Shown one piece after another: positions 9,496 through 35,433 of a stretch of DNA of 64,000 bases. The stretch comes from Patescibacteria group bacterium. GTDB lineage: Bacteria; Patescibacteriota; Patescibacteriia; UBA10025; JAHIVO01. Made by a program: the position numbers and the translations under genes. Location of the stretch: positions 136-64,135 of the forward strand of contig JAXDBW010000042.1 of assembly GCA_034678405.1 (NCBI GenBank), read 5' to 3'. Every line of letters begins with the position of its first letter. Position 1 is the first letter of the stretch. The notes under the pieces are model-generated. The model did not search any database, was not told where the DNA came from, and was given only the letters and a program-made list of their open reading frames with translations.

Positions 9496-10557
9496 TTAAT
9501 AATTCGGAGCTTTCTTGCTAATAGTTATTGAGTGTGGATGCGACTCTTTCAGGCTGGCATGTGATATCTGGATAAATCGCGCTTGCCGCGGCATATCCGC
9601 AATAGTCATCGCCCCGATATAGCCCATGCCACTCTTCAGCCCGCCCACCATATGCCAGATGACGTCCTCGACCGGGCCTTTGTATGGTGTCACTGCCTCT
9701 ACGCCCTCAGGGACATACTTGGTTTTGCCTTTTTGGAAATAGCGATCACTGGATTTGCCGCCCTTCATCGCGCCCAGACTGCCCATACCGCGATACTGTT
9801 TGTATTTCTTACCGCCGATAGTAATGACTGAGCCGGGGGTTTCGGCGGTACCGGACAGCATGGAGCCGAGCATCACGGACGAAGCACCCGCGGCCAGAGC
9901 TTTCACGATGTCGCCGGAGTATTTGATGCCACCGTCGGCTATCACGGGCACCTTTTTCTGCTTTGCTACTTTTACTACATCCATGATGGCCGTGAGCTGT
10001 GGGACACCAATACCAGCCACGATGCGGGTCGTACAAATAGCGCCAGGGCCGATGCCCACCTTCAGCCCGTCAGCGATCGGCAGCAATGCTTTGGCTGCTT
10101 CGGCCGTACCGATGTTTCCCATCACCAGAGGTGTCCTGATGGCTTTTTTGATTTTTCGTGCGCTGGCCATGATCCGCGTGTGATGGGCGTGCGCGCAGTC
10201 GACGAAGATAACGGTCGCCCCGGCTTTGTCTAGCGCTGTCGCGCGCTCAATATCATGTGGTCCGACTGCCGCGCCGACTTGGACCTTCGCTTTCTTCGCT
10301 TCTCGGACCCACTTCACCTGTTGTTCGATAGTACAGTTGCGATGCAGGACGGCCATGCCCCCGAGTTTCCCGAGCGTGATAGCCATCTTCGCTTCACTCA
10401 CCGTATCCATCGCGGCTGAGAGGATCGGTACGTCCAAAAAAACCGTCTGAGTGAGACGGGTCTTGAGATTAATCCGATCACGATCCACCCCGGATTTACG
10501 TGGCTCCAGGAGCACGTCATCAAAGGTAATGCCTTGTCGGATCGCGGGAGTAGCCAT
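9496..10557 (-). CDS. guaB: IMP dehydrogenase / GMP reductase family protein (no CBS subdomain)
   Basis: 353 aa TIM barrel with catalytic loop [10 protein letters not shown] and [24 protein letters not shown]. It is too short to contain the CBS pair, so IMPDH versus GuaC is not resolved. Confidence 0.8.
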
Positions 10558-10632
10558 GCGGCTAATAATCTATGTTGTTAAAAATGTTGGAAACAGTATA
10601 CCACGCGTACGAGGATACGTCTACTCTACTAT

Positions 10633-10664
10633 AAAAAGCCCCGACCTGGCAAGCCAGATCGGGG
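10633..10664 (-). terminator. Rho-independent terminator after purA
   Basis: Minus strand: GCCCCGATCTGGCTTGCCAGGTCGGGGC followed by TTTTTAT. Confidence 0.65.
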
Positions 10665-10699
10665 TAGTGTGTATTCCTCCTAGAGAAGTACTGATGTGG

Positions 10700-12145
10700 T
10701 TATTGACGGACGATCAGGTGTGCCCGGTCCGGACCAGTGCTGATGTACCCGTAGTGGCAACCGGCAATCTCCTCGAACGTCTCGATGTACTGGCGGGCGT
10801 TGGCTGGCAGTTTCGCGAAATCGGTCTCGCCGGTGAAATCGTCATCCCACCCCGGCAGTACGGTGTATTCAGGACGAATCTGATCCCACACTTTCGGCGA
10901 GAACGGCATCTGATTCGGGCTGACTGCTGACTGACCGAGTCGATACCCGGTCACCAGCTTCACGGTTTCCAATCCCGTCAGATAGTCGAGTTTTGTCAGC
11001 GCCATCGTGTCAGGTGCATTCACCTGGCAGAAATAGTTGGTGAAAACCGGGTCGCCCCAGCCGAGTCGACGCGGACGGCCCGACGTGGCGCCGTACTCAT
11101 TGCCGACCACCCGCAGGTACTGACCAATCTCCTGGTCACTTGCCCGGCTGGCATTGATCTTCTCACGCATCTCGGCAATCCACGCCGTGCGCTGATCCTT
11201 CGGGATGCGCTTTTCCTTGTCCGTGATGGCATAGTCGCCGAGTTCACTCGGGAACGGGCCGTTGCCGACCCGGTGAGTGATCGCCGTATCGACGCCAATC
11301 TTGTAGCCGACTGCTTCGATGGGCAATCCGGAACCGACGGTGATACCGCCAAACGTACAGAGCCCCTGGGTATTATTGCCCCAGGTGCCCCAGTACGGAT
11401 CGAGCCACATACCCTGGGCACCTTCCCAGAGGATGCGCTTATTCTGATTGCTCCAGGCATCGAACAGATACTGACGGACATCACGGACGTAGGGTCGCAT
11501 CCGTCCGGCAATCGCCGTCAGGTACTCGGTCATTTCATCCGGAGTGTAGATGTGATCGTAATCGACCTCGCCTGCTTCGTGAGATGTAGCGACGGCCGCC
11601 TGCACGTCGGGCAACTGAAATATGCCCTCAAACGAGCGGTAGAAAACCCCCAGCCACCGGCGCAGTTCATCGTCGTCAAAAATCATCGACATATGCGGAT
11701 CCAATCGCAGGCCGATTGAGCCAGCGATCGCGCACATGCCGCGGCCCGTCGTGTAGGCCTTGTTGACGCCTTTGCGATTTTCGAAGTACCACTCGAGAAT
11801 CCGGTGCCACGGCATACTGAGAAACGCTCCGGTATCCACAAACAGACCCTTGAGATCGCCTCCCCGGGAGGCAAATTCATCGACCTCTTTGATCAGCTGG
11901 TACGGATCCACTCGGACGCCCTTGGTCAGGACGCAGATCTTACCAGCTGCCGCCCCGCTCGGGAGCAAATGGCCGACAAACTTGAAATCGCCGACCGTGA
12001 TCGTATGGCCGGCGTTAGCACCACCCTCATAGCGTGCGACAATCTCAGAATCTTCGGCACACGAGTCAACGATTTTTCCCTTTCCCTCATCGCCAACCTT
12101 TGCGCCAATCACGGCCTTGTTCTGTTTCTTCATGCTATCCTCCAA
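10700..12145 (-). CDS. purA: Adenylosuccinate synthetase
   Basis: GDEGKGKIVD P-loop, GGANAGHTI, and a C-terminal GTP-binding region. It is 481 aa, longer than the typical bacterial PurA. Confidence 0.9.
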   Translation of the reverse strand: MEDSMKKQNKAVIGAKVGDEGKGKIVDSCAEDSEIVARYEGGANAGHTITVGDFKFVGHLLPSGAAAGKICVLTKGVRVDPYQLIKEVDEFASRGGDLKGLFVDTGAFLSMPWHRILEWYFENRKGVNKAYTTGRGMCAIAGSIGLRLDPHMSMIFDDDELRRWLGVFYRSFEGIFQLPDVQAAVATSHEAGEVDYDHIYTPDEMTEYLTAIAGRMRPYVRDVRQYLFDAWSNQNKRILWEGAQGMWLDPYWGTWGNNTQGLCTFGGITVGSGLPIEAVGYKIGVDTAITHRVGNGPFPSELGDYAITDKEKRIPKDQRTAWIAEMREKINASRASDQEIGQYLRVVGNEYGATSGRPRRLGWGDPVFTNYFCQVNAPDTMALTKLDYLTGLETVKLVTGYRLGQSAVSPNQMPFSPKVWDQIRPEYTVLPGWDDDFTGETDFAKLPANARQYIETFEEIAGCHYGYISTGPDRAHLIVRQ

Positions 12146-16805: not shown

Positions 16806-17339
16806 TCACGACACCTCATACATATAGATCGGAATTCGCTGATCACTTGGTTTGTTCACTGTCGTCGGCACCCACTCGGGAATAGCAAAACTATAGGAAA
16901 TAACTTTAGTTCCTGGTTTCAGCTCCCGTTTAAATTTTGGTCCCAGTTTGGCCATGGCTTTCGGCGTCAAGAAACAAAAAATAACCGTGGCCTGTCCGAG
17001 GTCGCGCTGGTAGAAATCAGCAAAGCGAATTTCAACTTGCCGAGATAGGCCGAGCAGGAGAATGTTGAGCCGCGACCAGAGATACGGTAAGAAAGATACC
17101 TCATACCCACAAAACGTAGCCGTAGAATTATGCGCCATGCCAATCAAGACACGCCCATCTCCCGACCCTAAATCATACACGACATCACTATCGTGAATAT
17201 CGGCGAGCTGGATAATACGTTTAATATCCTTTTTGAAAACCGGCAGCCACGGCGCAGCCTTCACCCCGGCATACGCCGCCGTGCCGAGAACCACCACGCT
17301 ACCAACAAATAATGCTGCGGCTGTAATACTGCCAGACAT
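16806..17339 (-). CDS. Class I SAM-dependent methyltransferase, membrane-anchored
   Basis: VYDLGSGDGRVL (motif I) downstream of an N-terminal TM segment. Its start codon is 1 nt from the stop of the upstream ATPase gene. The start is chosen at MSGSITAA; the full ORF reaches 17444. Confidence 0.65.
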   Translation of the reverse strand: MSGSITAAALFVGSVVVLGTAAYAGVKAAPWLPVFKKDIKRIIQLADIHDSDVVYDLGSGDGRVLIGMAHNSTATFCGYEVSFLPYLWSRLNILLLGLSRQVEIRFADFYQRDLGQATVIFCFLTPKAMAKLGPKFKRELKPGTKVISYSFAIPEWVPTTVNKPSDQRIPIYMYEVS

Positions 17340-17340
17340 A

Positions 17341-19890
17341 TTATGCGTTGCGCTCACCGACCATTGGTCCTTGCGTCGCCGCCGGAGTCCCGAGTTTAGA
17401 TTTATCTGCAATCTCACTCTCGACCTGCACTCGATCTCGACCATACTTCATGCGAGAGAGTTCTATCAGTTGCTGCGCTCGCGCGGGGTCTCCCGGCTGC
17501 GGCGGATACGTCTGCATGGTAAATGGCTTGGATGCGGTGTTATTAATGAGGAGTTTCACCAGGGCAGTATACATATCGACATTGATGATGTCGTATTCAT
17601 TGAAGACCGGGTCAAACTCCTTCGCAAACGTCTCCGCATCCTCGACGCCCACCCGAAACATCACGACCGTCCCGGCATTACCAAAGACCGCATCCCGAAT
17701 CCGGGTATCGTTATTCTCGCGGACCAGCTGACTGATGTACTGATGTGCCATGGTGAGATTGAGGCGGTATTTCCGTGCTTCGGAGAGGATTGTCGCGATA
17801 CTATCCGTCACAAAATTTTGGAATTCATCAATATAGAGATAAAAATCACTACGCTGCTCCTCAGGGAGACTCACTCGCTTCATCGCGGCCATCTGAAGTT
17901 TCGAGACGATGATGAGGCCGAGGAGACTGCTGTTCACTTCCCCGGTCGTGCCCTTGGCGAGATTGATCAGGAGTATCTTTTTATTATTCATCACATCATC
18001 GAAGTTAAACCCCGACTTCGGCTGACCAATGATATTGCGCATCATCGCATTCTCCACAAACCGTCCTACTTTCGAAATGATGTAGCCGAGCATCTCTGAT
18101 TTATGAAAGTCTGACGTCTTCGCCATTTCCTTTTCCCAGAATGCCCGAACTACCGGGTCTTTTACCTTCGTCAGTTTATATTTCTGGAAGGCTGGATCAG
18201 TAAACATCCGGGGGATCTCAGCCAGCGTCCCCGGACTCTCAGTATCCTCCATCAGGGTCAGCATGACATTCCGCATATTATGCTCAAACATTGGACCGAT
18301 CATTTCCGGCGGGAAGAGCTTTTCAAAGATTGCGATCATTTCCTGCACTGCGAAATCTTTTTCCTCTGGCGTCTTCGCTTCGAGCATATTGAGGCCCAGA
18401 GGCCGTTCCATATCCGAGGGATTGAAATATATTACGTCATCAGCGCGCTCCTTCGGGATGTGCTCCATGACCGTGCTGACGAGATCACCATGCGGATCGA
18501 CGACCCCCACCCCTTTGCCATTCTGGATATCCTGAATAATCATATTTGAAAGGAGTACTGATTTCCCAACGCCCGACTTACCGATGACATACACATGGCG
18601 GCGGCGGTCGCTGTCTCCGATGCGGACCTGGACATCCTGTCCCCGAAACGGACTGTGGCCGAGGATGAGCCCCTCGGTCGGCATGTTCACTGGCGCAGGA
18701 GCTTTGCGCGAGGAGAGCCAGCGGATATTTGGTGTCTCCGTGATAGGTAATGGGAAATGATAGACGCTGGCCATTTCTTCAGCATTGAGAAGCATCGAAT
18801 GTTTTTCATTGAACCGGCGATATATATAGTCGTTAACAATCAAATCGGTATTGCGTCGATCACGACGCGAAAAGCCGTTGCCATACTCATACATATTATA
18901 CTGGCTAAAGGCATCCACTATATTTGTCAGATGGGCCTGGGCCCGCTCCCGACTCTGGGCAGACACGATGATGCGGATATTGACATCCATACCAGCTTTG
19001 GAGGTTTTCTCCTCAATACTCTTCGCGATTTCTTCGTCGCGAGCCGAGGGGGTATGGGCTTTGGCAAATTCGGTTTCCGATTCTTTCTTTGGGAAAAAAG
19101 TTCGGAATACCTCCATGAGTAGGGCGCGTGCACCACTATAGCCGATAGCCTCTTTGAGTGATTTGCCGTTATGGAGATCGCGGGCGACTCGTGCGCCAAA
19201 ATCATGCCAGGGCGCCTTTGCCGAGCGGGCGACATACTGAATGATAGCACTCTCACCGACTGGCACCTTGGACAGGACATTCGTGAGTGACTGCAGCGGA
19301 TCCACCTCAAGCTGGCGGTACGTCCGAATCGGAAAGATATACTCTTTTTTAAATTCAAGAGTAGTAGCGACTACCACACTCGTCGGAGTAAAGACATTGA
19401 AATCATCGACCGGATCTATATTTGCTCGCGGGTATTGTGCATGAATTTGCTGCTCCATGTATTCGCGCAGGTACCGCGGCACCGCGACATAAAACGAAAT
19501 CAATCCCTGAGTCGCAACTATCTCGAGAGCGAAATGGTCATTGCGGCCAGCTACTGCCGCCCCCATCCCCCGCTGGGCACGCATCCCCCCGAGTACCGAA
19601 AACCATGCTTCGGCTTCATTGAGCATATCCTGGATCCCCTGGACCGTATGCATCTGCTCACTGTCCTCTCCCATTTCTGACTCTTTTGGCACGGTGACGA
19701 GGAGCAATACTTTTTGCAAGGCATGCGGAAGTGACTTTTCACTCCGGAGACGCTTCTTGATAATGAAAAAAGCGGCCACCACCGTAATGATGATAGAGAC
19801 ACCGATGAGTACTATGGGAAAGGCGGCACTCTCGAGCGGATGCGCGAGTGCGTCTTTGAGCTGTGAAAAAATGTTGAGCTGCGGCGTCAT
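17341..19890 (-). CDS. VirD4/TraG/TraD-like type IV coupling protein family ATPase (membrane-anchored P-loop NTPase)
   Basis: 849 aa. N-terminal TM helix, Walker [14 protein letters not shown] followed by GVVDPHGDL, which resembles the T4CP DPKGEL box. Walker B is FYLYIDEFQNF. Confidence 0.55.
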   Translation of the reverse strand: MTPQLNIFSQLKDALAHPLESAAFPIVLIGVSIIITVVAAFFIIKKRLRSEKSLPHALQKVLLLVTVPKESEMGEDSEQMHTVQGIQDMLNEAEAWFSVLGGMRAQRGMGAAVAGRNDHFALEIVATQGLISFYVAVPRYLREYMEQQIHAQYPRANIDPVDDFNVFTPTSVVVATTLEFKKEYIFPIRTYRQLEVDPLQSLTNVLSKVPVGESAIIQYVARSAKAPWHDFGARVARDLHNGKSLKEAIGYSGARALLMEVFRTFFPKKESETEFAKAHTPSARDEEIAKSIEEKTSKAGMDVNIRIIVSAQSRERAQAHLTNIVDAFSQYNMYEYGNGFSRRDRRNTDLIVNDYIYRRFNEKHSMLLNAEEMASVYHFPLPITETPNIRWLSSRKAPAPVNMPTEGLILGHSPFRGQDVQVRIGDSDRRRHVYVIGKSGVGKSVLLSNMIIQDIQNGKGVGVVDPHGDLVSTVMEHIPKERADDVIYFNPSDMERPLGLNMLEAKTPEEKDFAVQEMIAIFEKLFPPEMIGPMFEHNMRNVMLTLMEDTESPGTLAEIPRMFTDPAFQKYKLTKVKDPVVRAFWEKEMAKTSDFHKSEMLGYIISKVGRFVENAMMRNIIGQPKSGFNFDDVMNNKKILLINLAKGTTGEVNSSLLGLIIVSKLQMAAMKRVSLPEEQRSDFYLYIDEFQNFVTDSIATILSEARKYRLNLTMAHQYISQLVRENNDTRIRDAVFGNAGTVVMFRVGVEDAETFAKEFDPVFNEYDIINVDMYTALVKLLINNTASKPFTMQTYPPQPGDPARAQQLIELSRMKYGRDRVQVESEIADKSKLGTPAATQGPMVGERNA

Positions 19891-20740: not shown

Positions 20741-21205
20741 ATGCGTTCACTGAACATCGCCGCTCTTTTGATTGCCACCGTTGCGGTTGCGCTGGGCACC
20801 ACTGGCTGCGACCTGAAACGGATTGTCGGTTCGTCCCCCTACGCCGATGGGAACTATGTTCTCCTCGAGTCGAAGGGTGAGGTGTACGACAACAACGCCT
20901 TCATCGACCTGAACGAAGCCCCGCAAAATGGCTACATGCAAATCAAGGGGTTTGTCCATGTCGAGGGTGGGTATACGCTGGTGACAGCTCAAATCAAGAT
21001 CGGCGGACAGTCGTGGCAGAACTTCCCGAACATCGAAGGGAAGTTCAAACCCTACATCGACTATTCGAACAACCACTCGGATAGCGAGGTCGACGTCCAG
21101 ATCCGGTTCCGGTTTGGATATAGGGACCAGTACAACGCCGCCCACACCACCGACTTCTACTACGCCAACTACCGGCTGTGGCACAATCCCTACCATCTGG
21201 AATAG
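20741..21205 (+). CDS. Putative lipoprotein
   Basis: AGGAGG lies 7 nt upstream of the ATG. Signal peptide with a lipobox-like LGTTGC. Confidence 0.6.
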   Translation: MRSLNIAALLIATVAVALGTTGCDLKRIVGSSPYADGNYVLLESKGEVYDNNAFIDLNEAPQNGYMQIKGFVHVEGGYTLVTAQIKIGGQSWQNFPNIEGKFKPYIDYSNNHSDSEVDVQIRFRFGYRDQYNAAHTTDFYYANYRLWHNPYHLE

Positions 21206-21348
21206 ATGGTACGAACAGTCGTTGGAGCGTGGCAGCGCACAACCATTTGGCGCACGTATGATACAACTCAGCGTGCGCCTCTTTTTTATCCCTTGAAAAA
21301 TACAGAAAAATGTGTTACACTATAGATAATCCAACATAAAAATCATCC

Positions 21349-22290
21349 ATGACGGAACTTTCACCCGCTTCAACCTCTCTCCTTCTCATCCTCGTCGTTC
21401 TCGGCGTGGTTATCTTTTGGTTATATCGGATGAACCTGAAAGCCAGATCAAACTTCGGCGTACTGAAACTCTATGCCAAGGATTTAACCGCTCTGGCTCA
21501 GCAAAAAAAACTTGACCCGGTGATCGGCCGCGAGCATGAAATTGAACGCGTTATCCAGATCCTCTCCCGCCGGACGAAGAACAACCCCGTGCTCATCGGC
21601 AAATCCGGCGTCGGCAAGACGGCCATCGTGGAGGGCCTTGCACAAAAGGTAGCCGACGGTAGCGTCACGTCGGCGCTCGAAAATAAAAAAGTATTACAGC
21701 TGGATCTGAGCGGTCTCGTCGCCGGCACCAAATACCGCGGTGAGTTTGAAAAACGATTGAAGTCACTCGTCGATGAAATTATTGCCGCGAAGCGATCAAT
21801 TATTTTATTTATTGATGAGATTCATAGCCTCGCTGAGGCTGGAGAAGCGACCGGTGCGATTAACGCGGCAGACATCCTGAAACCGGCCCTCTCCCGCGGA
21901 GACCTCCAAATGATCGGCGCGACCACTCCCGAGGAATACAAAACCTATGTCGAACATGACCAAACCCTCGAGCGTCGTTTCCAGCCAGTGAGTATCGAGG
22001 AGGTGTCGAAAGAGCAAACCCTCGCCATCCTCAAAGGAATCCGTCCTCAGTACGAAGAGCACCACCAGCTGAAGATCACTGACGCCGCCCTGGAGCGAGC
22101 CATCACTCTCGCGGACGAGCATGTCCATGATCGATTTTTTCCTGACAAAGCGATTGATCTCATGGATGAGGCGGCTGCCCTCGTGAAATTACGCAGTATT
22201 AAGGATGGTAATGCGCATCTCCAAGTCGAACCGCAAGACATCGAAACCATCCTCAATGAGTGGAAAGAAGAAGGGATCGAAGCATCATAA
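21349..22290 (+). CDS. Membrane-anchored Clp/Hsp100-like AAA+ protein with the D1 ATPase domain only
   Basis: TM helix, then [44 protein letters not shown] (ClpA/B/C D1 Walker A), Walker [11 protein letters not shown], and sensor GATT..EY...D..LERRFQ. The protein ends after the D1 small subdomain, with no N-domain or D2. Confidence 0.7.
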
Positions 22291-22306: not shown

Positions 22307-23185
22307 ATGTCAGGTCTCCTCCTGGTCATCATCGGGTCAATCATCTACCCGTTCATAGACGTATTTAAGAAGAAGGCCACCGCCCACTACAGTGTGGGGG
22401 TTATTTTTTGGTTAGTGGCGCTCTGTGAAGTGCCCTTCTATATCGTACTCATCCTCTGGCTGGGGATCCCGGAGATAGACGCGAGCTTTTGGTGGATTGT
22501 CGGCATCAATACACCGATCCTGATTATTACCAATGTCCTCCTGATCAAAGACGAAAAGATCGCGCCGCTTTCGACCACACTCCCCCTGCTTTCCTTTACC
22601 CCCGTCTTCCTCATCTTCACGTCATATTTTTTCCTCGGCGAATTACCGAATGCCTACGGCGTCATCGGCATCTTCCTCGTGGTACTCGGCGCTATCCTGC
22701 TGAAGGGCGAAGATCTACGGAACGGCCTGCGAAGCCGGATGCGTCACATCTTCTCGCAGCGCTCGAGTCTCTATATCCTCGTCATTGCGTTTCTCTGGAG
22801 CTTCAGCGCGAATTTCGTAAAGATCGCGGCCGAGGCGAGCTCGGCGTGGTTTTACCTCGCTGTCACGGTGGCCCTGGAGGCGCTCTTCATGACTGTTTGG
22901 ATGGCCTTCCGTCATGGCAAACGCACTGTCGGAAAAATCAAAGGACATATCCCTCTCCTAGTCGGGGCGGCAGTGTTCTCTGTCGCGGCGGATGTTATCT
23001 TTTTGATAGGGCTTGAGCATACGTTTGTCTCCTACGCTATCGCCATCAAGCGCGGCCTCCTCATCGTCGGCAGTATCGCACTCGGCGCAGCATTCTTCCG
23101 TGAACGCAATATCCGATACCGAATCGGTGGGGCACTGGTGATGGCCATCGGCCTTCTCTTCATCCTCGTCTTTGGCGCGAGCTAG
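22307..23185 (+). CDS. EamA/DMT-family transporter
   Basis: 292 aa and about 10 TM helices. It is a paralog of the gene at 25458. Confidence 0.65.
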   Translation: MSGLLLVIIGSIIYPFIDVFKKKATAHYSVGVIFWLVALCEVPFYIVLILWLGIPEIDASFWWIVGINTPILIITNVLLIKDEKIAPLSTTLPLLSFTPVFLIFTSYFFLGELPNAYGVIGIFLVVLGAILLKGEDLRNGLRSRMRHIFSQRSSLYILVIAFLWSFSANFVKIAAEASSAWFYLAVTVALEALFMTVWMAFRHGKRTVGKIKGHIPLLVGAAVFSVAADVIFLIGLEHTFVSYAIAIKRGLLIVGSIALGAAFFRERNIRYRIGGALVMAIGLLFILVFGAS

Positions 23186-23718: not shown

Positions 23719-25263
23719 ATGCTGTCACTATTTAATACACTCCACCGGACAAAAGAACCGTTTACCCCCCTGTCGGATAATCACGTCGGGCTCTATACCT
23801 GTGGCCCGACAGTCTATAACTATGCCCATATCGGCAACCTCCGGACGTACCTCTTCGAGGACATTCTGAAACGTGTCCTGCGCGCTGACGGCTATGATGT
23901 CACGCACGTCATGAACATAACTGATGTCGGTCATCTGACGGATGATGCTGATCGCGGAGAGGACAAGATGGAGAAAAGCGCGGCAAAAGAAGGTAAAACT
24001 GTCTGGGACGTCGCGGAGCATTATACCCAGGCATTCAAAAAAAACATGCATGAACTCAATATCTCTGAGCCAGACATCTGGGCGAAAGCCACCGACCATA
24101 TCCAGGAGCAGATCGACTGGATCAGGCGACTTGAGCAAAAGGGCTTCACGTACCAGACGAGTGATGGCGTGTATTTCGATACCAGCAAGCTCAATGACTA
24201 TGGTAAGCTCTCCGGTCAAAATCGCGCCGAGCTCTCCGAGGGTATCCGCGTCGAGAAAAACGACGAAAAGAAAAACCCGACTGACTTCGCGCTCTGGAAA
24301 TTCTCACCGCAAGACGTGAAACGCCAAATGGAATGGAACTCGCCCTGGGGCATTGGGTTCCCCGGCTGGCACCTCGAGTGCTCAGTCATGGCGAGTAAAT
24401 ATCTCGGGGAGCAGTTTGACATCCACTGCGGTGGGATTGACCACATCCCCATCCACCATACCAATGAGATTGCTCAGACTGAAGCGGTCACGGGCAAGGA
24501 CTTCGTGAAGTATTGGCTGCATGGCGAATTCCTGGTCCTGAAAGATGAAGACCCACTCTCGGGGATCAAACTAATTAACACAACAATGATCTGCGAAATT
24601 TGTGGCCACAATAATTTTTTCCCTGACCAGAAAAAATTCAAATTTAAAAATAAAGACGGTTACAAGTTTATCTACGCAGAATGTGAGAAATGTCATGCGG
24701 AAATGAGCTTTGGAGTTAGAAAAATGGCAAAGTCCGCAGGGAACTTCATCACTCTCGAGACCCTGAAGAGCAAAGGCTATGACCCACTTGCCTACCGCTT
24801 CTTTAATCTCGGTACGCACTATCGCAAACCGCTCACCTTCACCTGGGAAGCGATCGAGTCGGCTCAGCACGCCTATGACAATGTCATGGCTATCGCAGCA
24901 GACCTCGGCGAGCCGAAGATTGGCTGTGCTGAATTTGAGGAGAAATTTATGCACGCACTGAATGATGATCTGAATACGCCGCAAGCGCTAGCAGTCATGT
25001 GGGACCTACTAAAATCCGACTACCCGCCTGCTGCCAAAAAAGCCTCACTACTGAAATTTGATGAAATCCTCGGCCTGGACCTGGCCAGCGCCAAACCAAT
25101 CGATGTGCCTGCTGCCATACGCGAGTTAGTCTCGAAGCGTGAGCAGCTCCGCACCGACAAACAATACGACGAGGCTGATACACTCCGAGATGAGATTGCT
25201 GCCGCAGGATTTATCGTCGAAGACACCCCCGCTGGCTCGGTTCTGAAAAAGTTAAAATCATAA
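23719..25263 (+). CDS. cysS: Cysteine--tRNA ligase with a ~55-aa zinc-ribbon insertion before KMSKS
   Basis: HIGN motif ([10 protein letters not shown]), zinc-binding Cys residues (CGPTVY, ECSVM), and KMAKSAGN at residue ~335. The insertion is [10 protein letters not shown]...[12 protein letters not shown]. Confidence 0.92.
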
Positions 25264-28624: not shown

Positions 28625-29746
28625 CTACGACTGATTGAGCTCCTCGAGGAGCTGCTTTTGTTTACGCGAAAGCTTCGTCGGTGTCACCACCTGGACGGTC
28701 ACGAGATGGTCTCCTCGTCCGCGAGTGCGTAAATGAGGCACCCCTTTTTCTGATAGTTTAAACACTTTGCCTGACTGTGTGCCAGCGGGCACCTTCAGCA
28801 TGACTTCACCATCCAGGGTTTCCACAGGGATCTTGTCCCCGAGGGCGGCCTGGCTAAATGAGAGCTCGGCAGTCGAGCGAATATCATCGCCGTCTCGGTC
28901 AAACTGCGGATCTGGCTGGACTCGGACGGTGATATAGAGATCCCCCGCCTGACTACCCCGCACACCGACTTCGCCTTTGCCCGACAACCGAATTGTTTCG
29001 CCGTCGCTGATGCCAGCGGGAATTTTCACTCGGACCGTTTCTTCTTCTTTTACCCGGCCCTCGCCGTTACATTTTGTACATTTCTTCTCGGGCTTCTTCC
29101 CCTCCCCATGACAATCCGGACAAATGCTGGCCGTGCGAAACTGGCCGAGAATCGTCTGCTGGACCCGGGCGACTTGGCCCTGTCCCCCGCAGGTCTGGCA
29201 CGTCTCTATCTTCGTGCCCGGCTCAGCGCCATTTCCGCCACACTTCAAGCAGGCGACGTGGGTATAGAGCGAGATGTCTGTCTCGGCGCCGAAGACCGCC
29301 TCGCGAAACGGTAGCTGCATATCCATCTGGATGTCCTGGCCCGACGTCCGGGCACTCCGCCCACCGCTGCGGCGGCCGAAACCGAAAATATCCCCGAAGA
29401 TATCACCAAAATCACCGAAGTCATACTCAACTCGCTGACCCTGTCCCTGACCACCACCAAATGGTCCTCCCGCGCCACCAGCGGCACGGGCAAAGTCCTC
29501 CCAATTAAACCCCTGACCACGGGCACCGGCTTGCTGCTCATAGCCGGGACCAAACTGATCATAGCGCTGCCGGCGCTCAGCATTGCCGAGCACCTGGTAG
29601 GCACCGTTAATTTCCTTAAACTTCGCTTCGTCTCCATCCGGTTTGTCCGGGTGGTATTTGTGCGCGAGCTTGCGGTAGGCCTTCTTTATTTCGTCTGCCG
29701 AGGCGTCTTTCGCGACACCCAGAATCTCATATAAATCTTTTGACAT
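28625..29746 (-). CDS. dnaJ: Molecular chaperone DnaJ
   Basis: J-domain (YEILGV...HPD), G/F-rich linker, and four CxxCxGxG zinc-finger repeats. Confidence 0.95.
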
Positions 29747-30966: not shown

Positions 30967-31335
30967 GTGCATCAAGACGGCACACAGTACTATCGTTGCA
31001 TCAAACCGCTAACTAAGAATGCGGTGATATTCTGCGCCGGCCACCAGTATCTACGACGCCTGCCTGGTGCAGGAAGCGTCTCACTGGACAAAACCGGGGG
31101 CGGGGTGATTGCTCTCTCCGATGAAGAGCTGGTCCAGCACTTCGTACCGGTATTTTCGGTTCGATGTACCTATGAGTACACGATCATGCGTGAGCCGGTA
31201 TTCCGCAAGGGTGGGATGTACTGGGCTCGTTCGTCGGATACCACGGACGATGTCCATATCTACCCGGGCCGGCAGGATGCGGTCGTCACCCTTTCCGCGC
31301 AGACTTTCAAAAAACATTTCACCGTGTCTGCCTGA
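30967..31335 (+). CDS. Hypothetical protein
   Basis: AGGAGG lies 6 nt upstream of the GTG at 30967. The ORF track extends this frame upstream to 30880, but that part has no RBS. Confidence 0.4.
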   Translation: MHQDGTQYYRCIKPLTKNAVIFCAGHQYLRRLPGAGSVSLDKTGGGVIALSDEELVQHFVPVFSVRCTYEYTIMREPVFRKGGMYWARSSDTTDDVHIYPGRQDAVVTLSAQTFKKHFTVSA

Positions 31336-31354
31336 TCGACGGTGTCCAGGCGAT

Positions 31355-31393
31355 CAAAAAACCCGAGCGACTAACTATCGCCCGGGTCTTTTA
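31355..31393. terminator. Bidirectional rho-independent terminator between convergent genes
   Basis: AAAAAA-CCCGAGCGA...TCGCCCGGG-TCTTTTATT. Confidence 0.6.
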
Positions 31394-31405
31394 TTGTATC
31401 GGAAC

Positions 31406-31708
31406 TTACGCCGTCCGAAATCCGATTTCCGAACCAGGCGCCTGCGCTTCCTCGATCTTACCAAATTTGTCTTCGTACTTCTTGATATTTTCCTCGAGCG
31501 CCTTATAGATGCGTTTCATATGTCCGGGGCTGGTAATCACCCGGGCATTCACCACGCCGGCTCGCTGATGCGCGTAGACATTCATAAAGTCGAGGACAAA
31601 CTCCTCCTTCGAGTGTGAGACGCCCATCGCGTTTGAATACACGCCTTTCAGGGTCGCGTCATCAATCTTGATATTGATTTGCTGTTGATTATTCTGCTGG
31701 CCATTCAT
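31406..31708 (-). CDS. DUF3467-family protein
   Basis: GVYSNAMGVSHSKEEFVLDF...RVITSPGHMKRIYKALEENIKKYEDKFGKI matches the DUF3467 consensus (GIYSNLA..HS..EFVLDF ... P.HAKRL..AL..NI.KYE..FG.I). Confidence 0.75.
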   Translation of the reverse strand: MNGQQNNQQQINIKIDDATLKGVYSNAMGVSHSKEEFVLDFMNVYAHQRAGVVNARVITSPGHMKRIYKALEENIKKYEDKFGKIEEAQAPGSEIGFRTA

Positions 31709-31835
31709 ACAGTCAGATATATTACTAATAATATCTGTATCATAGCGAGCGACGGAGTATTTGACAAATCGGGCAATTCGCCAGTAGGCTGAAGGTAGAC
31801 ATTGCTCGTATCAATCTCAAACAGTGAGGTGACAT

Positions 31836-32154
31836 ATGCCACATCGATTACCTATAGCGCGCATTGTGTTCCAGCGACGACGCATCATGATCCGGGCTGG
31901 CGCCCGCCGCTTCTCTATCCACACCGGTGGGGTACACCGGATACGCTTCAGCTCGCATGACGAGCCGCAGCACGTCCGCCTCGGACCGCATCATCGCACG
32001 GTGCATCTCCACGCGCCGATCGTCCATGCCATCCACTGCTGAGCCACAAATCACCAGTAGCCGGTCTGTGTCTGGCTACGGCTACCCGACGGGGCCGCTT
32101 GGTTCCTCCACCGCCTGAGCTCTTCTCCACATTTGGAGCTCAGGCGATTTTTTT
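31836..32154 (+). other. GC-rich, apparently non-coding segment ending in a strong intrinsic terminator. Possible ncRNA of unknown class.
   Basis: The only ORFs are Arg/His-rich and appear on both strands, which is typical of spurious translation of GC-rich RNA. Terminator GCCTGAGCTC...GAGCTCAGGC plus T7 at 32113-32154. Confidence 0.3.
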
Positions 32155-32255
32155 ATCCATCGAAAATCATTGACAGGGGCCATGGGGGCACGGTATGGTA
32201 ACTATGTAAATACATACAGCCCTTCACACCCCAAAAAAAATAAGGGAGGTATCCC

Positions 32256-32660
32256 ATGACAGGAGGTATGTCGGCGGCAGATGCCACAGACCGTGCTCAG
32301 CTGAGCATTGATTTTACGCTGCCCACCTTCAGTATCGACGACCACGGCGTCAGCCCATCCGTGAATGATGGTGTCATCATCAATCACATCGAGCTGACGG
32401 AATTCGATGAACTCGCGATTCATGTCGCATCCCATCACATCACCGCATCCCCCGCCACTACGGTTTCGCTATCCGAGATACTCGATGGTACCGTCATTAT
32501 CCGCGCCACGGATGACCGTGATGAGCTCATCCTCTGCAATGCGGATGATTACAGCGGTTCGAAATTCCTCGCCATCCATCAGAGTACTCTGCAGACTATC
32601 GGCGCGCATTTCGGCGTCAATCCCGAGACTATTCTCTCCATCTGTCCCGCTCCGTCATAA
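32256..32660 (+). CDS. Hypothetical protein
   Basis: AAGGGAGG RBS 7 nt upstream of the ATG. 134 aa. Confidence 0.5.
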   Translation: MTGGMSAADATDRAQLSIDFTLPTFSIDDHGVSPSVNDGVIINHIELTEFDELAIHVASHHITASPATTVSLSEILDGTVIIRATDDRDELILCNADDYSGSKFLAIHQSTLQTIGAHFGVNPETILSICPAPS

Positions 32661-32801
32661 GCACGCCGTGCTACTCCCCTACGCACATAATCCACGGCCC
32701 GTCTCAACCATATAGTATGAGCGGGCCTTTGCTATTGACAAAGTACGATACTCATGATAGAATCGCACATTACTACTGTATATGAAACCAAGGAGGTATT
32801 C

Positions 32802-33056
32802 ATGAATCGGTACGCTCTCCTCGTAGTAATTCTCGCTCTTTCGATCTTGCTGCTGTTCGTAACCACGGTCACCGGACCCTTTGGAAAAAACGCACTGGCC
32901 AACTGTATCAATCAGTTGTCCTATGTGGTCAATGATTTTGGTTACGTCGCAGAAAGTGTTGATGGCCGCAATGCAGTCATCAAAATCATCGCGCTCCTGG
33001 CCGCGATCACATCACTGCTCTGCATCATCGTATCAAAACCGCAGGGATCGCACTAA
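32802..33056 (+). CDS. Small membrane protein (2 TM)
   Basis: AAGGAGG RBS with the ATG at 32802, and a terminator directly after the stop. Confidence 0.55.
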   Translation: MNRYALLVVILALSILLLFVTTVTGPFGKNALANCINQLSYVVNDFGYVAESVDGRNAVIKIIALLAAITSLLCIIVSKPQGSH

Positions 33057-33058
33057 CC

Positions 33059-33100
33059 AGCAGGCACTCATCGGACGAGCGCCTGCTTTGATTTTTATTT
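33059..33100 (+). terminator. Rho-independent terminator
   Basis: AGCAGGC...GCCTGCT followed by TTTGATTTTTATTT. Confidence 0.7.
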
Positions 33101-33177
33101 GACGCGAGTAACTGAGATGGGGTAGGCTGGATCTGAAATTCGGTCGTCTGACACTACGGCCGAGCTTCATGCTCTAT

Positions 33178-33229
33178 CCCCCCGCGTATCCACTTCTGTC
33201 TGGTTGATGGGTACGCGGGGACTTTTTTT
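33178..33229 (+). terminator. Rho-independent terminator (second in the series)
   Basis: CCCCCGCGTA...TACGCGGGG followed by ACTTTTTTT. Confidence 0.6.
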
Positions 33230-33345
33230 AGCCCAACTTGACAGCGACATAGAACTGCGCTACGCTAGTTTCTCACATATAGATCATTCTTTCGGATTTA
33301 CATAAAAGCCCCCCTCTGAGCCTTTTCAGGCTCAGCCCTGCGTGT

Positions 33346-33400
33346 AGTGGGACCGTGCAGACAGCATTTCCGGATGCTCGAGCGGTCCCACTCTTTTTTA
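33346..33400 (+). terminator. Rho-independent terminator (third in the series)
   Basis: AGTGGGACCG...CGGTCCCACT followed by CTTTTTT. Confidence 0.6.
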
Positions 33401-33404
33401 TATA

Positions 33405-33433
33405 TTGACGAAGAAACGGCGTCGTGCTACTAT
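33405..33433 (+). promoter_or_regulatory. Sigma70-like promoter for the 33531 operon
   Basis: TTGACG, a 17-nt spacer, then TACTAT. It lies about 95 nt upstream of the GTG start. Confidence 0.5.
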
Positions 33434-33530
33434 CGGTAGTTCCGATGTATATATGCATCGGGTTTTCAACACACGCAAAAGCGAACATTTGACATAACCA
33501 ACAAACCCAAACCAATACGGAGGTACATTC

Positions 33531-34544
33531 GTGAAACGATTCAGTATTATGGTGTTATTGCTCGTACCACTGGTGCTCTCGCAGCGCCTCTCCGCCGCCC
33601 CCGATTCGATCAAGGTCACCTTTGACCGTAATGAAGGTATGGCGGCCTGGGACCGGATCGTCCGCATCCAGGGAGATGCCATCGCAGCTATGGTCGGCAG
33701 TCAACTGGCGGACTCAACCAGTATCATTACCGTCATATCAAATGCTGACGGCGTCCAATACCGGACGAATCATCAGAAACAGAATACGGTCATGACTGAG
33801 GAACGGGCCGTCACCGCGACCACCCTGCTCGAGTACTACTGTGCCGATCTCAGCCGAGTTCGCGTCGTGCCGCTCATGAATCAGGCGGACACCGGATCAG
33901 AATATCGGTACATCATTTTCAAGTATGCGAGTCACCGGCCGGGCACGTCAGCGATAGAACCGTTTGGGGGCTCGCGAGAAGCAGTTCGTGAACATGAACG
34001 ACGGTCAGACATAGCGCCGATCCGTCCCACGCCTCCCGTGTCGACTCCCCCGGCCAAATCAACTCCTGATACGTGCTGCACGTATACCGCATTGTGGCTG
34101 GGCACTGGACTCAACTACAGCCCCTTGGAAAAAGTGCTGCCGCACATCCAGGCTGAATGGGGTACAGAGCGACTGCGGTTGATAGCGGCGGTCAGCTATT
34201 CAGTCTACCAGGAGGATAAAAACTTCGCTGGAGACGAGCTACAGGTAAGCTATCGCTCAGTAGCCGGCGGTATTGCCTGGCAGGCAGTACCACACAGCCA
34301 GTTTGACCTGGTGGCGCTCTGGCAACGAAACGAGGAGTATGCCGTCGACTACGGCCGCTACGCCCGCAAGCTGGAAGGGCCGGCCATCGGTATACGACTA
34401 CAACTGACCGACTATCTGGAGATGACCGGTCTGTGGACCCCCAGCGAGGAACAGGTACGCGGCCGCGACGAAGTCGTCTGGGATACCGGTAAGATGTACC
34501 TCGGCCTGTCCGCGTTCATTCGTTTGACAGGAGGTGACCGATGA
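33531..34544 (+). CDS. Secreted protein, possibly with an OmpA-like N-terminal region and a beta-rich C-terminal half
   Basis: GTG start, and a signal peptide MKRFSIMVLLLVPLVLSQRLSAA. The C-terminal half has an alternating hydrophobic pattern. The OmpA assignment is weak. Confidence 0.5.
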   Translation: MKRFSIMVLLLVPLVLSQRLSAAPDSIKVTFDRNEGMAAWDRIVRIQGDAIAAMVGSQLADSTSIITVISNADGVQYRTNHQKQNTVMTEERAVTATTLLEYYCADLSRVRVVPLMNQADTGSEYRYIIFKYASHRPGTSAIEPFGGSREAVREHERRSDIAPIRPTPPVSTPPAKSTPDTCCTYTALWLGTGLNYSPLEKVLPHIQAEWGTERLRLIAAVSYSVYQEDKNFAGDELQVSYRSVAGGIAWQAVPHSQFDLVALWQRNEEYAVDYGRYARKLEGPAIGIRLQLTDYLEMTGLWTPSEEQVRGRDEVVWDTGKMYLGLSAFIRLTGGDR

Positions 34545-35107
34545 AACGTGTAGCATTCCTCTGCTGCCTGGCTGTCCTGGGCATGCTCATCAGCTGCGCT
34601 GAGAAGTTGCCGACGCCGACATCGCCCGATGTCGACACCCTCTATGTCGACGATACGACTACAATCTACGACTCGACCACGACGGCCGATACGCTGATTG
34701 ACACGATCTATATCGATGACACGCTCGTCATCTATGATACGACGATTATCGTGGACACCGTCGGGACTGACACCGTGACGGTCGTGGACACGATCTACAT
34801 CGACTCTACTACCACCGAGCCGTACTGCGGTACGCTCGATAGTAAATCGAAGCAGATCAAGTGGTTTGTCCCGCTCGAGCCGGGCCTGTATACCTTCCGT
34901 TTCTTCGGCTCGACTGACCGAGACAAACCCGAACAGCAGCTGACGGTCACGATCGGTAACACTCCCTGCGAATGGCCGATCGCCAGCCAACCGGAGCTGA
35001 CGCTCACCTTCACTGCTACATCTAGCCGCTGGGTCGTCATCACGGCTAATCCGCCGCCCGCCCGTGGGCACGCGATTCAGATCTGTCTCGAGATCCAGAA
35101 AACATAA
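34541..35107 (+). CDS. Lipoprotein with tandem D-T-I-Y-I-D-D-T-type repeats
   Basis: Lipobox LISC. The start overlaps the upstream stop (ATGA). Imperfect 21-24-nt coding repeats at 34621-34810. Confidence 0.6.
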   Translation: MKRVAFLCCLAVLGMLISCAEKLPTPTSPDVDTLYVDDTTTIYDSTTTADTLIDTIYIDDTLVIYDTTIIVDTVGTDTVTVVDTIYIDSTTTEPYCGTLDSKSKQIKWFVPLEPGLYTFRFFGSTDRDKPEQQLTVTIGNTPCEWPIASQPELTLTFTATSSRWVVITANPPPARGHAIQICLEIQKT

Positions 35108-35131
35108 CATTGCTCATACACACCCATTACC

Positions 35132-35162
35132 CAGGGGAGGCACCGCCTTCCCTGTTTTTTTA
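35132..35162 (+). terminator. Rho-independent terminator
   Basis: CAGGGGAGG-CACCG-CCTTCCCTG followed by TTTTTTTATT. Confidence 0.7.
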
Positions 35163-35241
35163 TTAACCCTCTTGACATAAGCGACTCAAATAGCGCAGGA
35201 TGGAGAAAAGCGCTCATCAAATGCAGCACGTGGAGGCAAGG

Positions 35242-35382: not shown

Positions 35383-35433
35383 GTTCGACCGCCCGGTCCT
35401 CGGATATAATCGAGGACGTAGTACCATCGAAAC

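What the first reader, a model, noticed from the sequence alone, without database searches (positions are those of the whole stretch)
21349..22290. Membrane-anchored Clp/Hsp100 homolog with the D1 ATPase ring only
The protein begins with a TM helix, goes straight into a complete ClpA/B/C-type first AAA+ domain, and stops after the D1 small subdomain. It has no N-domain, middle domain or D2. This is not a truncation artefact, since there is a clean stop and the next gene starts 17 nt later. Function is unknown. It could be a membrane-associated unfoldase or disaggregase, or a regulator.
Basis: seen in the sequence. Interest (0 to 1): 0.5.

Follow-up and report, generated by a model that had tools for sequence, protein, structure and literature searches.

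The report
Membrane-anchored single-ring Hsp100 (D1-only) ATPase
This gene encodes a naturally "halved" ClpC/ClpB-type protein-unfolding motor (one membrane helix plus only the first ATPase ring) that is conserved and under strong selection in a group of ultra-small CPR bacteria, and it probably pulls proteins out of or away from the membrane, though that role is inferred and untested.

Summary
ORF 21349-22290 (+) encodes 313 aa: a short N-terminus, one hydrophobic helix (about residues 8-26, positive-inside), a roughly 10-residue basic linker, then a complete Clp/Hsp100 D1 module (55-60% identical to ClpC/ClpB D1). Walker A/B, the KYR pore loop, sensor-1 and the RR finger are all intact. It has no Clp_N domain, no M-domain and no D2. 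It ends just after the conserved "V..DI..V..W" element that closes the D1 small subdomain in ClpA/B/C.

It is not a truncation. All 120 top homologues are 303-367 aa with the same architecture. They come from CPR/Patescibacteria (Kerfeld-, Buchanan-, Uhrbacteria). The pore loop is invariant in 120/120, pN is 0.09 against pS 0.74, and the anchored forms are monophyletic (59/60 bootstraps). No D2 coding potential exists in the window or in nine family loci.

Best reading: a membrane-tethered, single-ring threading ATPase whose substrate-entry face points at the membrane, with the same topology as Msp1/ATAD1 and FtsH. This mechanism is inferred from geometry and motif conservation and has not been shown. 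Whether these genomes also carry a D2-containing Hsp100 or ClpP could not be tested. I found no literature on the family. Databases label it generically, and misleadingly, as a "Clp protease ATP-binding subunit".

The parts
21249..21289 (+). Hairpin (8-bp GC-rich stem GGCGCACG/CGTGCGCC, 15-nt loop) followed by a T-run. Likely terminator of the upstream lipoprotein gene.
   Evidence: Read directly in the sequence. The scanner did not report it because the loop is longer than 8 nt.
21293..21321 (+). Sigma-70-like promoter candidate TTGAAA-17-TACACT with a TG extension, 28 nt upstream of the ATG
   Evidence: 9 of 12 matches. This is a consensus match only. There is no CIRCE operator here.
21349..22290 (+). 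TM-D1 gene: 313-aa membrane-anchored D1-only Clp/Hsp100 homologue
21370..21426 (+). N-terminal transmembrane helix (about residues 8-26, [19 protein letters not shown]). No K/R before it and a basic stretch after it, so N-out/C-in.
   Evidence: Hydropathy and charge statistics over 120 homologues; AF2 helix 6-34; alignment
21427..21456 (+). Short basic linker (residues 27-36, [10 protein letters not shown]..) between the TM helix and D1. pLDDT is below 50 at residues 31-36.
   Evidence: The spacing from the end of the TM helix to DPVIGR is fixed at 29-33 residues in 117 of 120 homologues.
21457..22005 (+). D1 large (alpha/beta) subdomain, residues 37-219
21598..21621 (+). Walker A GKSGVGKT (residues 84-91). 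Ser replaces the Pro of ClpB/ClpC GEPGVGKT in the core family.
21721..21750 (+). Pore-1 loop [10 protein letters not shown] (residues 125-134). GTKYRGEFE is invariant in 120 of 120 homologues.
21799..21819 (+). Walker B IILFIDE (residues 151-157)
21829..21861 (+). Family signature loop [11 protein letters not shown] (residues 161-171), in the position of ClpB/C LxGAGxAEGA (the second pore-loop region). Low pLDDT.
   Evidence: The tool chose it as a family-specific pattern. It is also present in the divergent member in L023.
21916..21927 (+). Sensor-1 GATT (residues 190-193)
   Evidence: 119 of 120
21967..21984 (+). Arginine-finger motif LERRFQ (residues 207-212)
   Evidence: L[EK]RRFQ in 113 of 120
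22006..22206 (+). D1 small (lid) subdomain, residues 220-286, AAA_lid_9
   Evidence: (E 3.5e-25)
22222..22263 (+). Tail element [14 protein letters not shown] (residues 292-305). It is homologous to the post-M-domain segment of ClpC (SEVTVDDIAMVVS) and ClpB (VSEEDLARVVSRW), and it closes D1. The protein stops 8 residues later.
   Evidence: motif in 111 of 120; lid-to-tail spacing 41-47 residues, against 96 in a ClpC type and 155 in ClpB
22307..23185 (+). Downstream EamA-family transporter gene. It is probably co-transcribed (no terminator in the 16-nt gap) and is not a D2.
   Evidence: The neighbour is not conserved across the family.

Best explanation
The gene encodes a member of a conserved, monophyletic CPR (ABY1-type Patescibacteria) protein family. 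The family derives from a ClpC-like class-I Hsp100 that lost its N-domain and its whole second ATPase module, and in the core group also its M-domain. In place of the N-domain it carries a single N-terminal signal-anchor helix. The cytoplasmic part is a complete, catalytically competent D1 AAA+ module.

The most likely mechanism is as follows. Six copies assemble on the inner face of the membrane into one ring, with tethering and possibly the TM helices supplying the assembly drive that D2 normally provides. In Hsp100s the N-terminus of D1 lies on the substrate-entry face, and here it is joined to the membrane by only about 10 residues, so the pore entrance faces the bilayer. ATP hydrolysis then drives the invariant KYR pore loops to thread polypeptide from the membrane side into the cytoplasm. 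The substrates would be membrane proteins or membrane-proximal proteins.

The protein would therefore act as a membrane-protein extractase/unfoldase with the same topology as Msp1/ATAD1 and the AAA ring of FtsH. It has no built-in protease, no ClpP-docking loop and no DnaK- or MecA-binding M-domain.

Shown here: the architecture, the completeness and conservation of the motifs, the topology signals, purifying selection, the single origin, the absence of a D2 nearby, and the presence of its own sigma-70-like promoter with no CIRCE heat-shock operator. Inferred: hexamer formation, ring orientation, threading direction and the identity of the substrates.
For: Architecture. All 120 top homologues are 303-367 aa with a TM helix and D1. 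Pore loop GTKYRGEFE is present in 120 of 120, and Walker A, Walker B, sensor-1 and the RR finger are conserved. Positive-inside bias is 0.04 versus 3.3 K/R, and the TM-to-D1 spacing is fixed. The D1 is complete up to the post-M tail element, and the lid-to-tail spacing of 41-47 residues leaves no room for an M-domain. Purifying selection is strong: pN 0.089 against pS 0.743, and pN is lowest (0.045) in the ATPase core. The 29 anchored forms are monophyletic against 78 D1 modules from full-length proteins, with 59 of 60 bootstraps. Divergent members keep a ClpC-length coiled coil, which points to a ClpC-like ancestor. No D2, N-domain or M-domain coding potential exists in the window or in nine family loci, and no AAA_2 gene is called within +-8 kb in five loci. 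The analogue Msp1 has a TMD in its first 32 residues, is mostly monomeric when soluble, and must be tethered to the membrane to extract substrates (PMC12793716). From established knowledge and not tested here: Hsp100 substrates enter at the N-terminal face of D1, D1 belongs to the classic AAA clade together with FtsH and Msp1, and the ClpP-docking loop lies in D2.
Against: There is no biochemical or genetic evidence for any member. The NBD1 and NBD2 of ClpB have been studied as separately expressed constructs (PMC3940203). From my own knowledge, isolated D1 modules of Hsp100s generally oligomerise poorly without D2, so a D1-only ring is not guaranteed. No functionally informative partner is conserved next to the gene. 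The neighbours (lipoprotein, CorA, EamA, cysS) vary between loci, and the divergent member in L023 sits between dnaE and miaA. The gene lacks the CIRCE operator that marks the hrcA-grpE-dnaK cluster in the same window, so there is no sign of heat-shock control. Whether the same genomes encode a D2-containing Hsp100, ClpP or other partners could not be checked.
Confidence: 0.5

Rival explanations
1. It is the D1 half of a split two-ring Hsp100. A separately encoded D2 protein elsewhere in the genome docks under the D1 ring and restores a ClpB/ClpC-like double ring at the membrane.
For: In other CPR lineages the canonical ClpB locus is called as adjacent D1 and D2 ORFs, and none of the top 120 D2 hits is full length. 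Separately expressed NBD1 and NBD2 constructs of T. thermophilus ClpB have been studied (Beinker et al. 2005, cited in PMC3940203). From my own knowledge, those two fragments can reconstitute chaperone activity. D2 normally helps oligomerisation.
Against: In the split ClpB loci the halves are adjacent, the D1 half keeps Clp_N and has no TM helix. Here no D2-like sequence occurs in 64 kb of window or in nine family loci. The family is a separate clade from CPR ClpB D1. The protein ends 4-49 residues after the tail Trp, with variable sequence and without the conserved TGIPV linker that leads into D2.
Confidence: 0.1
2. It is a non-threading, membrane-localised ATP-dependent regulator or assembly factor, for example for the nearby DUF8128/TrwB-like coupling-type ATPase system, for pili, or for another envelope machine. 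It would use nucleotide-dependent oligomerisation and not translocation.
For: Across Kerfeldbacteria-type genomes the gene lies in conserved synteny 1.5-3 kb from a divergently transcribed 849-aa DUF8128/TrwB_AAD_bind ATPase.
Against: The substrate-gripping pore loop is invariant in 120 of 120 homologues, and the second pore-loop region is also conserved. That is hard to explain without threading. The synteny is absent for the divergent member in L023 and may only reflect the relatedness of the genomes. There are no hits to defence or secretion families beyond generic AAA similarity.
Confidence: 0.2
3. It is a membrane-localised minimal disaggregase or general unfoldase acting on cytosolic proteins. 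The TM helix would serve only to drive assembly or to localise the ring, not to select membrane substrates. It might replace ClpB in lineages that lack it.
For: It shares D1 motor motifs with the disaggregases ClpB and ClpC. A dnaJ / dnaK-grpE-hsp20 cluster lies a few kb downstream in several genomes. The source names on TM-D1 hits are ABY1-type, while those on canonical-ClpB D2 hits are Parcubacteria-type, which hints at a complementary distribution.
Against: The core family has no M-domain, so canonical DnaK coupling is missing. With a linker of about 10 residues, the entry face is crowded against the membrane and poorly placed for bulky cytosolic aggregates (inference). There is no CIRCE control. 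The distribution hint is biased by the choice of query.
Confidence: 0.17
4. It is a truncation, frameshift or assembly artefact, or a decaying pseudogene of a full-length clpC/clpB.
For: None beyond the short length.
Against: The identical protein occurs on two independent assemblies. More than 120 clusters of 303-367 aa come from many samples. pN/pS is about 0.12, with pS saturated. The stop falls at the natural D1 boundary. The downstream gene is an EamA transporter.
Confidence: 0.01

Closest known systems
ClpC / ClpB (class-I Clp/Hsp100 unfoldases), D1 module
   Same: 55-63% sequence identity across the whole D1. The fold is the same. The Walker A/B motifs, KYR pore loop, sensor-1 and RR finger are the same. 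The closing 'VT..DI..VV..W' element is also the same. Divergent family members still carry a ClpC-length coiled coil.
   Different: It has no Clp_N domain, no D2 and hence no ClpP-docking loop, and the core group has no M-domain. An N-terminal TM anchor is present instead. The family has its own signatures (GxSGVGKT, LAEAG[EQ]A). It forms a separate clade from all sampled D1 modules of full-length proteins.
Msp1 / ATAD1 (eukaryotic membrane-protein extractase)
   Same: The overall design matches: an N-terminal signal-anchor helix (the first ~32 residues in Msp1), a single cytoplasmic AAA ring, no protease domain, and the entry face toward the membrane. Soluble Msp1 is mostly monomeric and needs membrane tethering for activity (PMC12793716).
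   Different: There is no specific sequence relationship. No Msp1 or ATAD1 chain appears among the 47 PDB sequence hits, which are almost all Hsp100 D1. The organisms are bacterial, not eukaryotic. This would be convergence from an Hsp100 D1. No function has been tested.
FtsH (bacterial membrane AAA+ protease)
   Same: It is membrane-anchored at the N-terminus, has a single classic-clade AAA ring facing the membrane, and works in membrane-protein quality control (PMC7949044 abstract).
   Different: FtsH has two TM helices with a periplasmic domain and a C-terminal M41 zinc-protease ring. The protein here has one TM helix and no peptidase domain.
Split or fragmentary Hsp100s (adjacent D1 and D2 ORFs at the CPR ClpB locus; engineered T. 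thermophilus ClpB NBD1 and NBD2 fragments)
   Same: In both cases a D1 module is encoded on its own polypeptide (PMC3940203).
   Different: Those D1 halves keep Clp_N, lack a TM helix and sit directly upstream of their D2 half. The TM-D1 family has no D2 nearby and is a distinct clade.

Membership tests
Class-I Clp/Hsp100 (ClpA/ClpB/ClpC) | Two AAA+ modules (D1 and D2) in one polypeptide | tested here: not met
   Only one AAA plus AAA_lid_9 is found, with no AAA_2 or ClpB_D2-small. NCBIfam scores are 374 against a cut-off of 1232 for ClpB, and 348 against 993 for ClpA. There is no D2 coding potential nearby.
Class-I Clp/Hsp100 (ClpA/ClpB/ClpC) | N-terminal Clp_N (double Clp repeat) domain | tested here: not met
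   There is no Clp_N hit. Residues 1-36 are a TM helix plus linker.
Class-I Clp/Hsp100 (ClpA/ClpB/ClpC) | D1-type AAA+ module with Walker A/B, KYR pore loop, sensor-1, RR finger and lid | tested here: met
ClpB / ClpC subfamilies | Coiled-coil M-domain inserted in the D1 small subdomain (the DnaK or MecA coupling site) | tested here: not met
   The lid-to-tail spacing is 41-47 residues in the core family, against 96 in a ClpC-type protein and 155 in CPR ClpB. Two divergent relatives (P0251, P0325) do keep a short coiled coil.
ClpA / ClpC (ClpP-activating unfoldases) | ClpP-docking loop in D2 | tested here: not met
   D2 is absent altogether. That the loop lies in D2 comes from established knowledge.
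Conserved CPR 'TM-D1' family (defined here) | 300-390 aa; N-terminal signal-anchor helix; D1 only; LAEAG[EQ]A loop; stop shortly after the tail Trp | tested here: met
   Monophyly is supported by 59 of 60 bootstraps.
Msp1/ATAD1 | Sequence membership in the Msp1/ATAD1 family of classic-clade AAA proteins | tested here: not met
   The PDB sequence search returns Hsp100 D1 chains and no Msp1 or ATAD1. Foldseek top hits are all ClpC, ClpB or ClpA.
Msp1/ATAD1 | N-terminal TM anchor plus a single AAA ring that extracts membrane proteins | tested here: inconclusive
   The architecture is met. Extraction activity cannot be tested with these tools.
FtsH | C-terminal M41 zinc metalloprotease domain and two TM helices | tested here: not met
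   There is no peptidase domain, and only one hydrophobic segment is present.
HrcA/CIRCE heat-shock regulon | CIRCE inverted repeat upstream of the gene | tested here: not met
   The single perfect CIRCE in the window is at 47083-47109, upstream of hrcA. No site with <=4 mismatches lies near the TM-D1 gene in the window, L003-L007 or L023; the one CIRCE in L011 is at 17918-17944, about 7 kb beyond the TM-D1 match at 10001-10876.

The most novel reading that the evidence does not exclude
In ABY1-type CPR bacteria this D1-only protein is the sole Hsp100-type motor. It works as a bacterial counterpart of Msp1/ATAD1: an autonomous, membrane-tethered single-ring dislocase that evolved convergently from a ClpC-like double-ring unfoldase. 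This would show that an Hsp100 D1 ring can assemble and thread on its own once it is anchored to a membrane.
Probability: 0.25. Interest if true: 0.75.

Novelty: new variant of a known kind. Interest (0 to 1): 0.55.

Why it matters
Class-I Hsp100 machines (ClpA/B/C, Hsp104) are regarded as obligate double-ring motors, and a long-running debate concerns how the D1 and D2 rings divide the work. A natural, strongly conserved D1-only protein tethered to the membrane would be a ready-made minimal system for asking what a D1 ring can do alone. It would also be an example of bacteria reaching the Msp1/FtsH-like membrane-facing ring design by reducing a Clp unfoldase. It bears on how ultra-small CPR cells with reduced genomes handle membrane-protein quality control. 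On the practical side, the usual database label, "ATP-dependent Clp protease ATP-binding subunit", is misleading, because the protein lacks the ring that carries the ClpP-docking loop.

Tried and rejected
1. Truncation or frameshift artefact. Rejected: the downstream gene is an EamA transporter, the stop is at the natural D1 boundary, and more than 120 short homologues exist.

2. D2, N-domain or M-domain remnants nearby. tblastn with the parts of a CPR ClpB found only the unrelated DnaX AAA module.

3. Split-gene partner. Probing with a CPR D2 led to canonical ClpB loci called as adjacent halves. These are a different gene in different lineages. No hit shared a contig length with the near-complete contigs that carry TM-D1. 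This test is weak.

It was useful only as an outgroup and for loci L007, L011, L023 and L069.

5. Heat-shock (CIRCE) control: absent.

6. Defence-system or phage association: only generic AAA hits in PADLOC, and a full-length Clp-type family in PHROGs.

7. The top-scoring hits in the representative search looked like fusions but are tandem D1-D1 proteins or duplicated assemblies, not family members.

9. Seven literature searches found no description of this architecture.

10. Whole-genome co-occurrence with ClpB, ClpP, ClpX or Lon could not be tested, because only +-10 kb around a gene can be fetched.

Full report
**1. Checking the observation**

The ORF at 21349-22290 (+) is real. It has an ATG start, encodes 313 aa and ends in a clean stop. 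The next ORF begins at 22307.

Pfam finds only a AAA core (residues 81-192) and the Clp-type lid AAA_lid_9 (residues 220-292). There is no Clp_N, no AAA_2 and no ClpB_D2-small. The downstream ORF is an EamA transporter, not a D2.

NCBIfam aligns the protein to positions 148-399 of the 853-position ClpB model and to 166-431 of the 734-position ClpA model. The scores are about a third of the family cut-offs, as expected for one of two modules.

The closest solved proteins are ClpC of B. subtilis (residues 156-409, E 7e-91), S. aureus ClpC, M. tuberculosis ClpC1 and then ClpB.

An AlphaFold2 model built on a 22-sequence family alignment has mean pLDDT 80. It shows a long N-terminal helix (6-34), a low-confidence hinge (31-36), and then the alpha/beta core and helical lid. 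Foldseek superposes the model on the D1 of ClpC, ClpC1 and ClpB, with TM-score about 0.75 relative to the query and 55-57% identity.

**2. The architecture is conserved and is not an accident**

The 120 best matches among 5.8 billion proteins are all 303-367 aa (median 324). Those that carry names come from Candidatus Kerfeldbacteria or the "Patescibacteria group", and are labelled "ATP-dependent Clp protease ATP-binding subunit" or "AAA family ATPase".

Statistics over those 120 proteins:
- A hydrophobic 19-residue window near the N-terminus has Kyte-Doolittle mean >=1.6 in 112 of them. The other 8 score 1.36-1.54.
- There are on average 0.04 K/R residues in the 10 positions before that window and 3.3 in the 12 positions after it. 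This is the signature of an N-out/C-in signal anchor, not of a cleaved signal peptide.
- The distance from the helix to the DPVIGR motif is fixed at 29-33 residues in 117 of 120.
- The pore-1 loop GTKYRGEFE is present in 120 of 120.
- Walker A (G-x-S-GVGKT), Walker B (IILFIDE), sensor-1 (GATT) and the arginine fingers (LERRFQ) are conserved.

The protein does not simply stop after the lid. It retains a conserved tail, V-x-x-x-D-[IV]-x-x-[IV]-x-x-E-W, in 111 of 120 homologues. A weak sub-alignment places this tail on ClpC's "SEVTVDDIAMVVS". ClpA, which has no M-domain, aligns contiguously through it. An intact 900-aa CPR ClpB shows the same element after its M-domain, "VSEEDLARVVSRWTGIPV".

The spacing from the lid motif PDKAID to the tail Trp is 41-47 residues in the core family. 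It is 96 in a ClpC-type protein and 155 in CPR ClpB. D1 is therefore complete, the M-domain is cleanly absent, and translation ends 4-49 variable residues after the Trp, exactly where the D1-D2 linker would start.

**3. Selection and origin**

I compared the gene with its 88%-identical orthologue in L090. pN is 0.089 against a saturated pS of 0.743. The tightest constraint is in the ATPase core (pN 0.045), and the TM region is also constrained (pN 0.106 against pS 0.518).

An exhaustive profile search of 1.84 billion representatives found further, more divergent TM-D1 clusters:
- P0249 (310 aa)
- P0255 (315 aa, Buchananbacteria)
- P0267 (329 aa)
- P0275 (328 aa)
- P0251 (374 aa)
- P0325 (389 aa, Uhrbacteria; UniRef A0A1F7ULY7, "AAA+ ATPase domain-containing protein")

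P0251 and P0325 keep the TM helix and the terminal Trp but retain a short coiled-coil insert. In P0251 the lid-to-tail spacing matches that of a ClpC-type M-domain.

A neighbour-joining tree on the D1 core compared 29 anchored forms with 78 D1 modules from full-length Hsp100s, including CPR ClpB. The anchored forms fall into one bipartition in 59 of 60 bootstraps. This indicates one origin from a ClpC-like ancestor, with later loss of the coiled coil in the core group. The outgroup was drawn from the loci most similar to the query, which is a caveat.

Kerfeldbacteria and Uhrbacteria belong to the ABY1 group of CPR (PMC12577380).

**4. Is there a D2 elsewhere?**

tblastn with the N-domain, M-domain and D2 of the CPR ClpB finds nothing in the 64-kb window or in nine family loci except the unrelated DnaX AAA module. 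No AAA_2 gene is called within +-8 kb in five loci.

Probing the protein database with a CPR D2 returned only short proteins. Those on long contigs proved to be the downstream halves of the canonical ClpB locus (htrA-like, clpB, trypsin-like), called as adjacent D1 and D2 ORFs. Their D1 halves keep Clp_N and have no TM helix. The same locus is intact in L069. So split Hsp100s may exist in CPR, but they are a different gene with a different layout.

Whole-genome co-occurrence could not be tested. That is the main gap in this analysis.

**5. Context and regulation**

In Kerfeldbacteria-type genomes the order of genes is conserved:
- On the minus strand: dnaX, two small genes, an 849-aa DUF8128/TrwB-like ATPase, and one small gene.
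- Divergently, on the plus strand: a small lipoprotein, then (CorA), TM-D1, (EamA), (a lipoyl-like gene) and cysS.
- A dnaJ, DUF3467, dnaK, hsp20, grpE cluster lies a few kb downstream.

The immediate neighbours vary between loci. The divergent member in L023 sits between dnaE and miaA. No conserved functional partner is therefore evident.

In the window a hairpin with a T-run (21249-21289) and a sigma-70-like site (21293-21321) precede the gene. The organism has an HrcA/CIRCE regulon, with a perfect CIRCE at 47083-47109 directly upstream of hrcA-grpE and then dnaK. No CIRCE-like site with <=4 mismatches lies near TM-D1 in any family locus.

PADLOC gives only generic AAA matches. PHROGs matches the protein to a 764-position Clp-type "ATP-dependent protease" family over D1 only.

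**6. Mechanism**

From established knowledge of Hsp100 structures, the N-terminus of D1 lies on the substrate-entry face, beneath the N-domains, and polypeptide moves from that face towards D2. Here the N-terminus is tied to the membrane by about 10 basic residues. A ring of these subunits would therefore present its pore entrance to the inner face of the membrane and release substrate into the cytoplasm.

This geometry matches FtsH and Msp1/ATAD1. It is the opposite of PTEX-HSP101, whose D2 face meets the membrane pore. All of these comparisons come from my own knowledge.

Msp1 is the closest functional analogue. Its TMD is its first 32 residues, it has a single AAA ring, the soluble wild-type protein is mainly monomeric, and it must be tethered to liposomes to extract substrates (PMC12793716). 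By analogy, membrane tethering, and perhaps packing of the TM helices, could replace the assembly contribution of D2.

The invariance of the pore loop argues for threading and against a purely regulatory role. The protein lacks D2, the ClpP loop, the M-domain and the N-domain. Canonical coupling to ClpP, DnaK or MecA-type adaptors is therefore excluded, and the common annotation as a Clp protease subunit is misleading.

I put the membrane-facing single-ring extractase/unfoldase model at about 0.5. The rivals are a general membrane-localised unfoldase or disaggregase (0.17), a non-threading regulator or assembly factor (0.2), a split-Hsp100 half (0.1) and an artefact (0.01).

**7. Novelty**

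Seven full-text searches found no description of a natural D1-only or membrane-anchored class-I Hsp100 in CPR or elsewhere. NCBIfam has no dedicated model for it.

The sequences themselves are public but only generically named. I rate the finding as a new variant of a known kind. The module is an ordinary Hsp100 D1. The architecture (TM anchor, single ring, no partner-docking elements) and its conservation across a CPR clade are new as far as I can tell.

Interest is moderate to good at 0.55. The finding is surprising for the Hsp100 field and directly testable, but the function is so far inferred only.

Noticed in passing
L087 6682-9383, L088 6603-9284, L089 6646-9311; intact version at L069 9482-12184: In Parcubacteria-type CPR contigs the canonical ClpB locus (between an htrA-like gene and a trypsin-like gene) is called as two or three adjacent ORFs, split in the lid/M-domain region. 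None of the 120 best D2 hits is full length (276-569 aa). This could be a real split ClpB, or frameshift-prone K/E-rich M-domain sequence combined with contig-end fragments.
   Followed up: partly
window 47083-47109, with hrcA 46349-47056(-), grpE 45709-46194(-), dnaK 42352-44283(-), dnaJ 28625-29746(-): A perfect CIRCE operator (TTAGCACTC-N9-GAGTGCTAA) lies directly upstream of hrcA-grpE and then dnaK, so this CPR organism has a classical HrcA heat-shock regulon. A second perfect CIRCE lies in the Kerfeldbacteria locus L011 at 17918-17944.
   Followed up: partly
window about 31300-42300: About 11 kb of ORFs with no Pfam or PHROG hits separates the dnaJ-side genes from dnaK. These genes are adjacent in related genomes (L005, L006). 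GC drops to 0.456-0.469 at 38-42 kb. No tRNA lies at the borders. This may be a lineage-specific insertion or variable island.
   Followed up: partly
window 23719-25263 (cysS), insertion at about residues 278-334: The CysRS here carries a 57-aa insertion with two CxxC pairs (CEICGH...CEKCHAEM, zinc-ribbon-like) that the 461-aa orthologue in L090 lacks. In L001, which encodes the identical TM-D1 protein, the cysS region was not called as one gene.
   Followed up: partly
window 17341-19890(-) and 16806-17444(-): An 849-aa membrane protein with DUF8128 and TrwB/VirD4-like coupling-ATPase domains is conserved upstream in all Kerfeldbacteria-type loci. It hits PADLOC mad8 (55.6 bits), and the nearby 212-aa methyltransferase-like protein hits mad2. 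These are probably domain-level similarities only.
   Followed up: no
P0242 (749 aa) and P0245 (766 aa), from the representative search: These proteins have two tandem D1-type modules (both with GVGKT and RRF motifs) and no D2, behind an unrelated N-terminal region. This is another unusual Hsp100-derived architecture. Their origin is unknown.
   Followed up: no
window 20741-21205 (+): The upstream gene encodes a small lipoprotein (lipobox LGTTGC) that evolves very fast. It is 33% identical between the window and L090, where TM-D1 is 88% identical.
   Followed up: no
window 57368-61075 (-): This 1235-aa ORF has no Pfam match. Several other large ORFs are also uncharacterised (47995-49578, 61520-63148, 38748-40001).
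   Followed up: no
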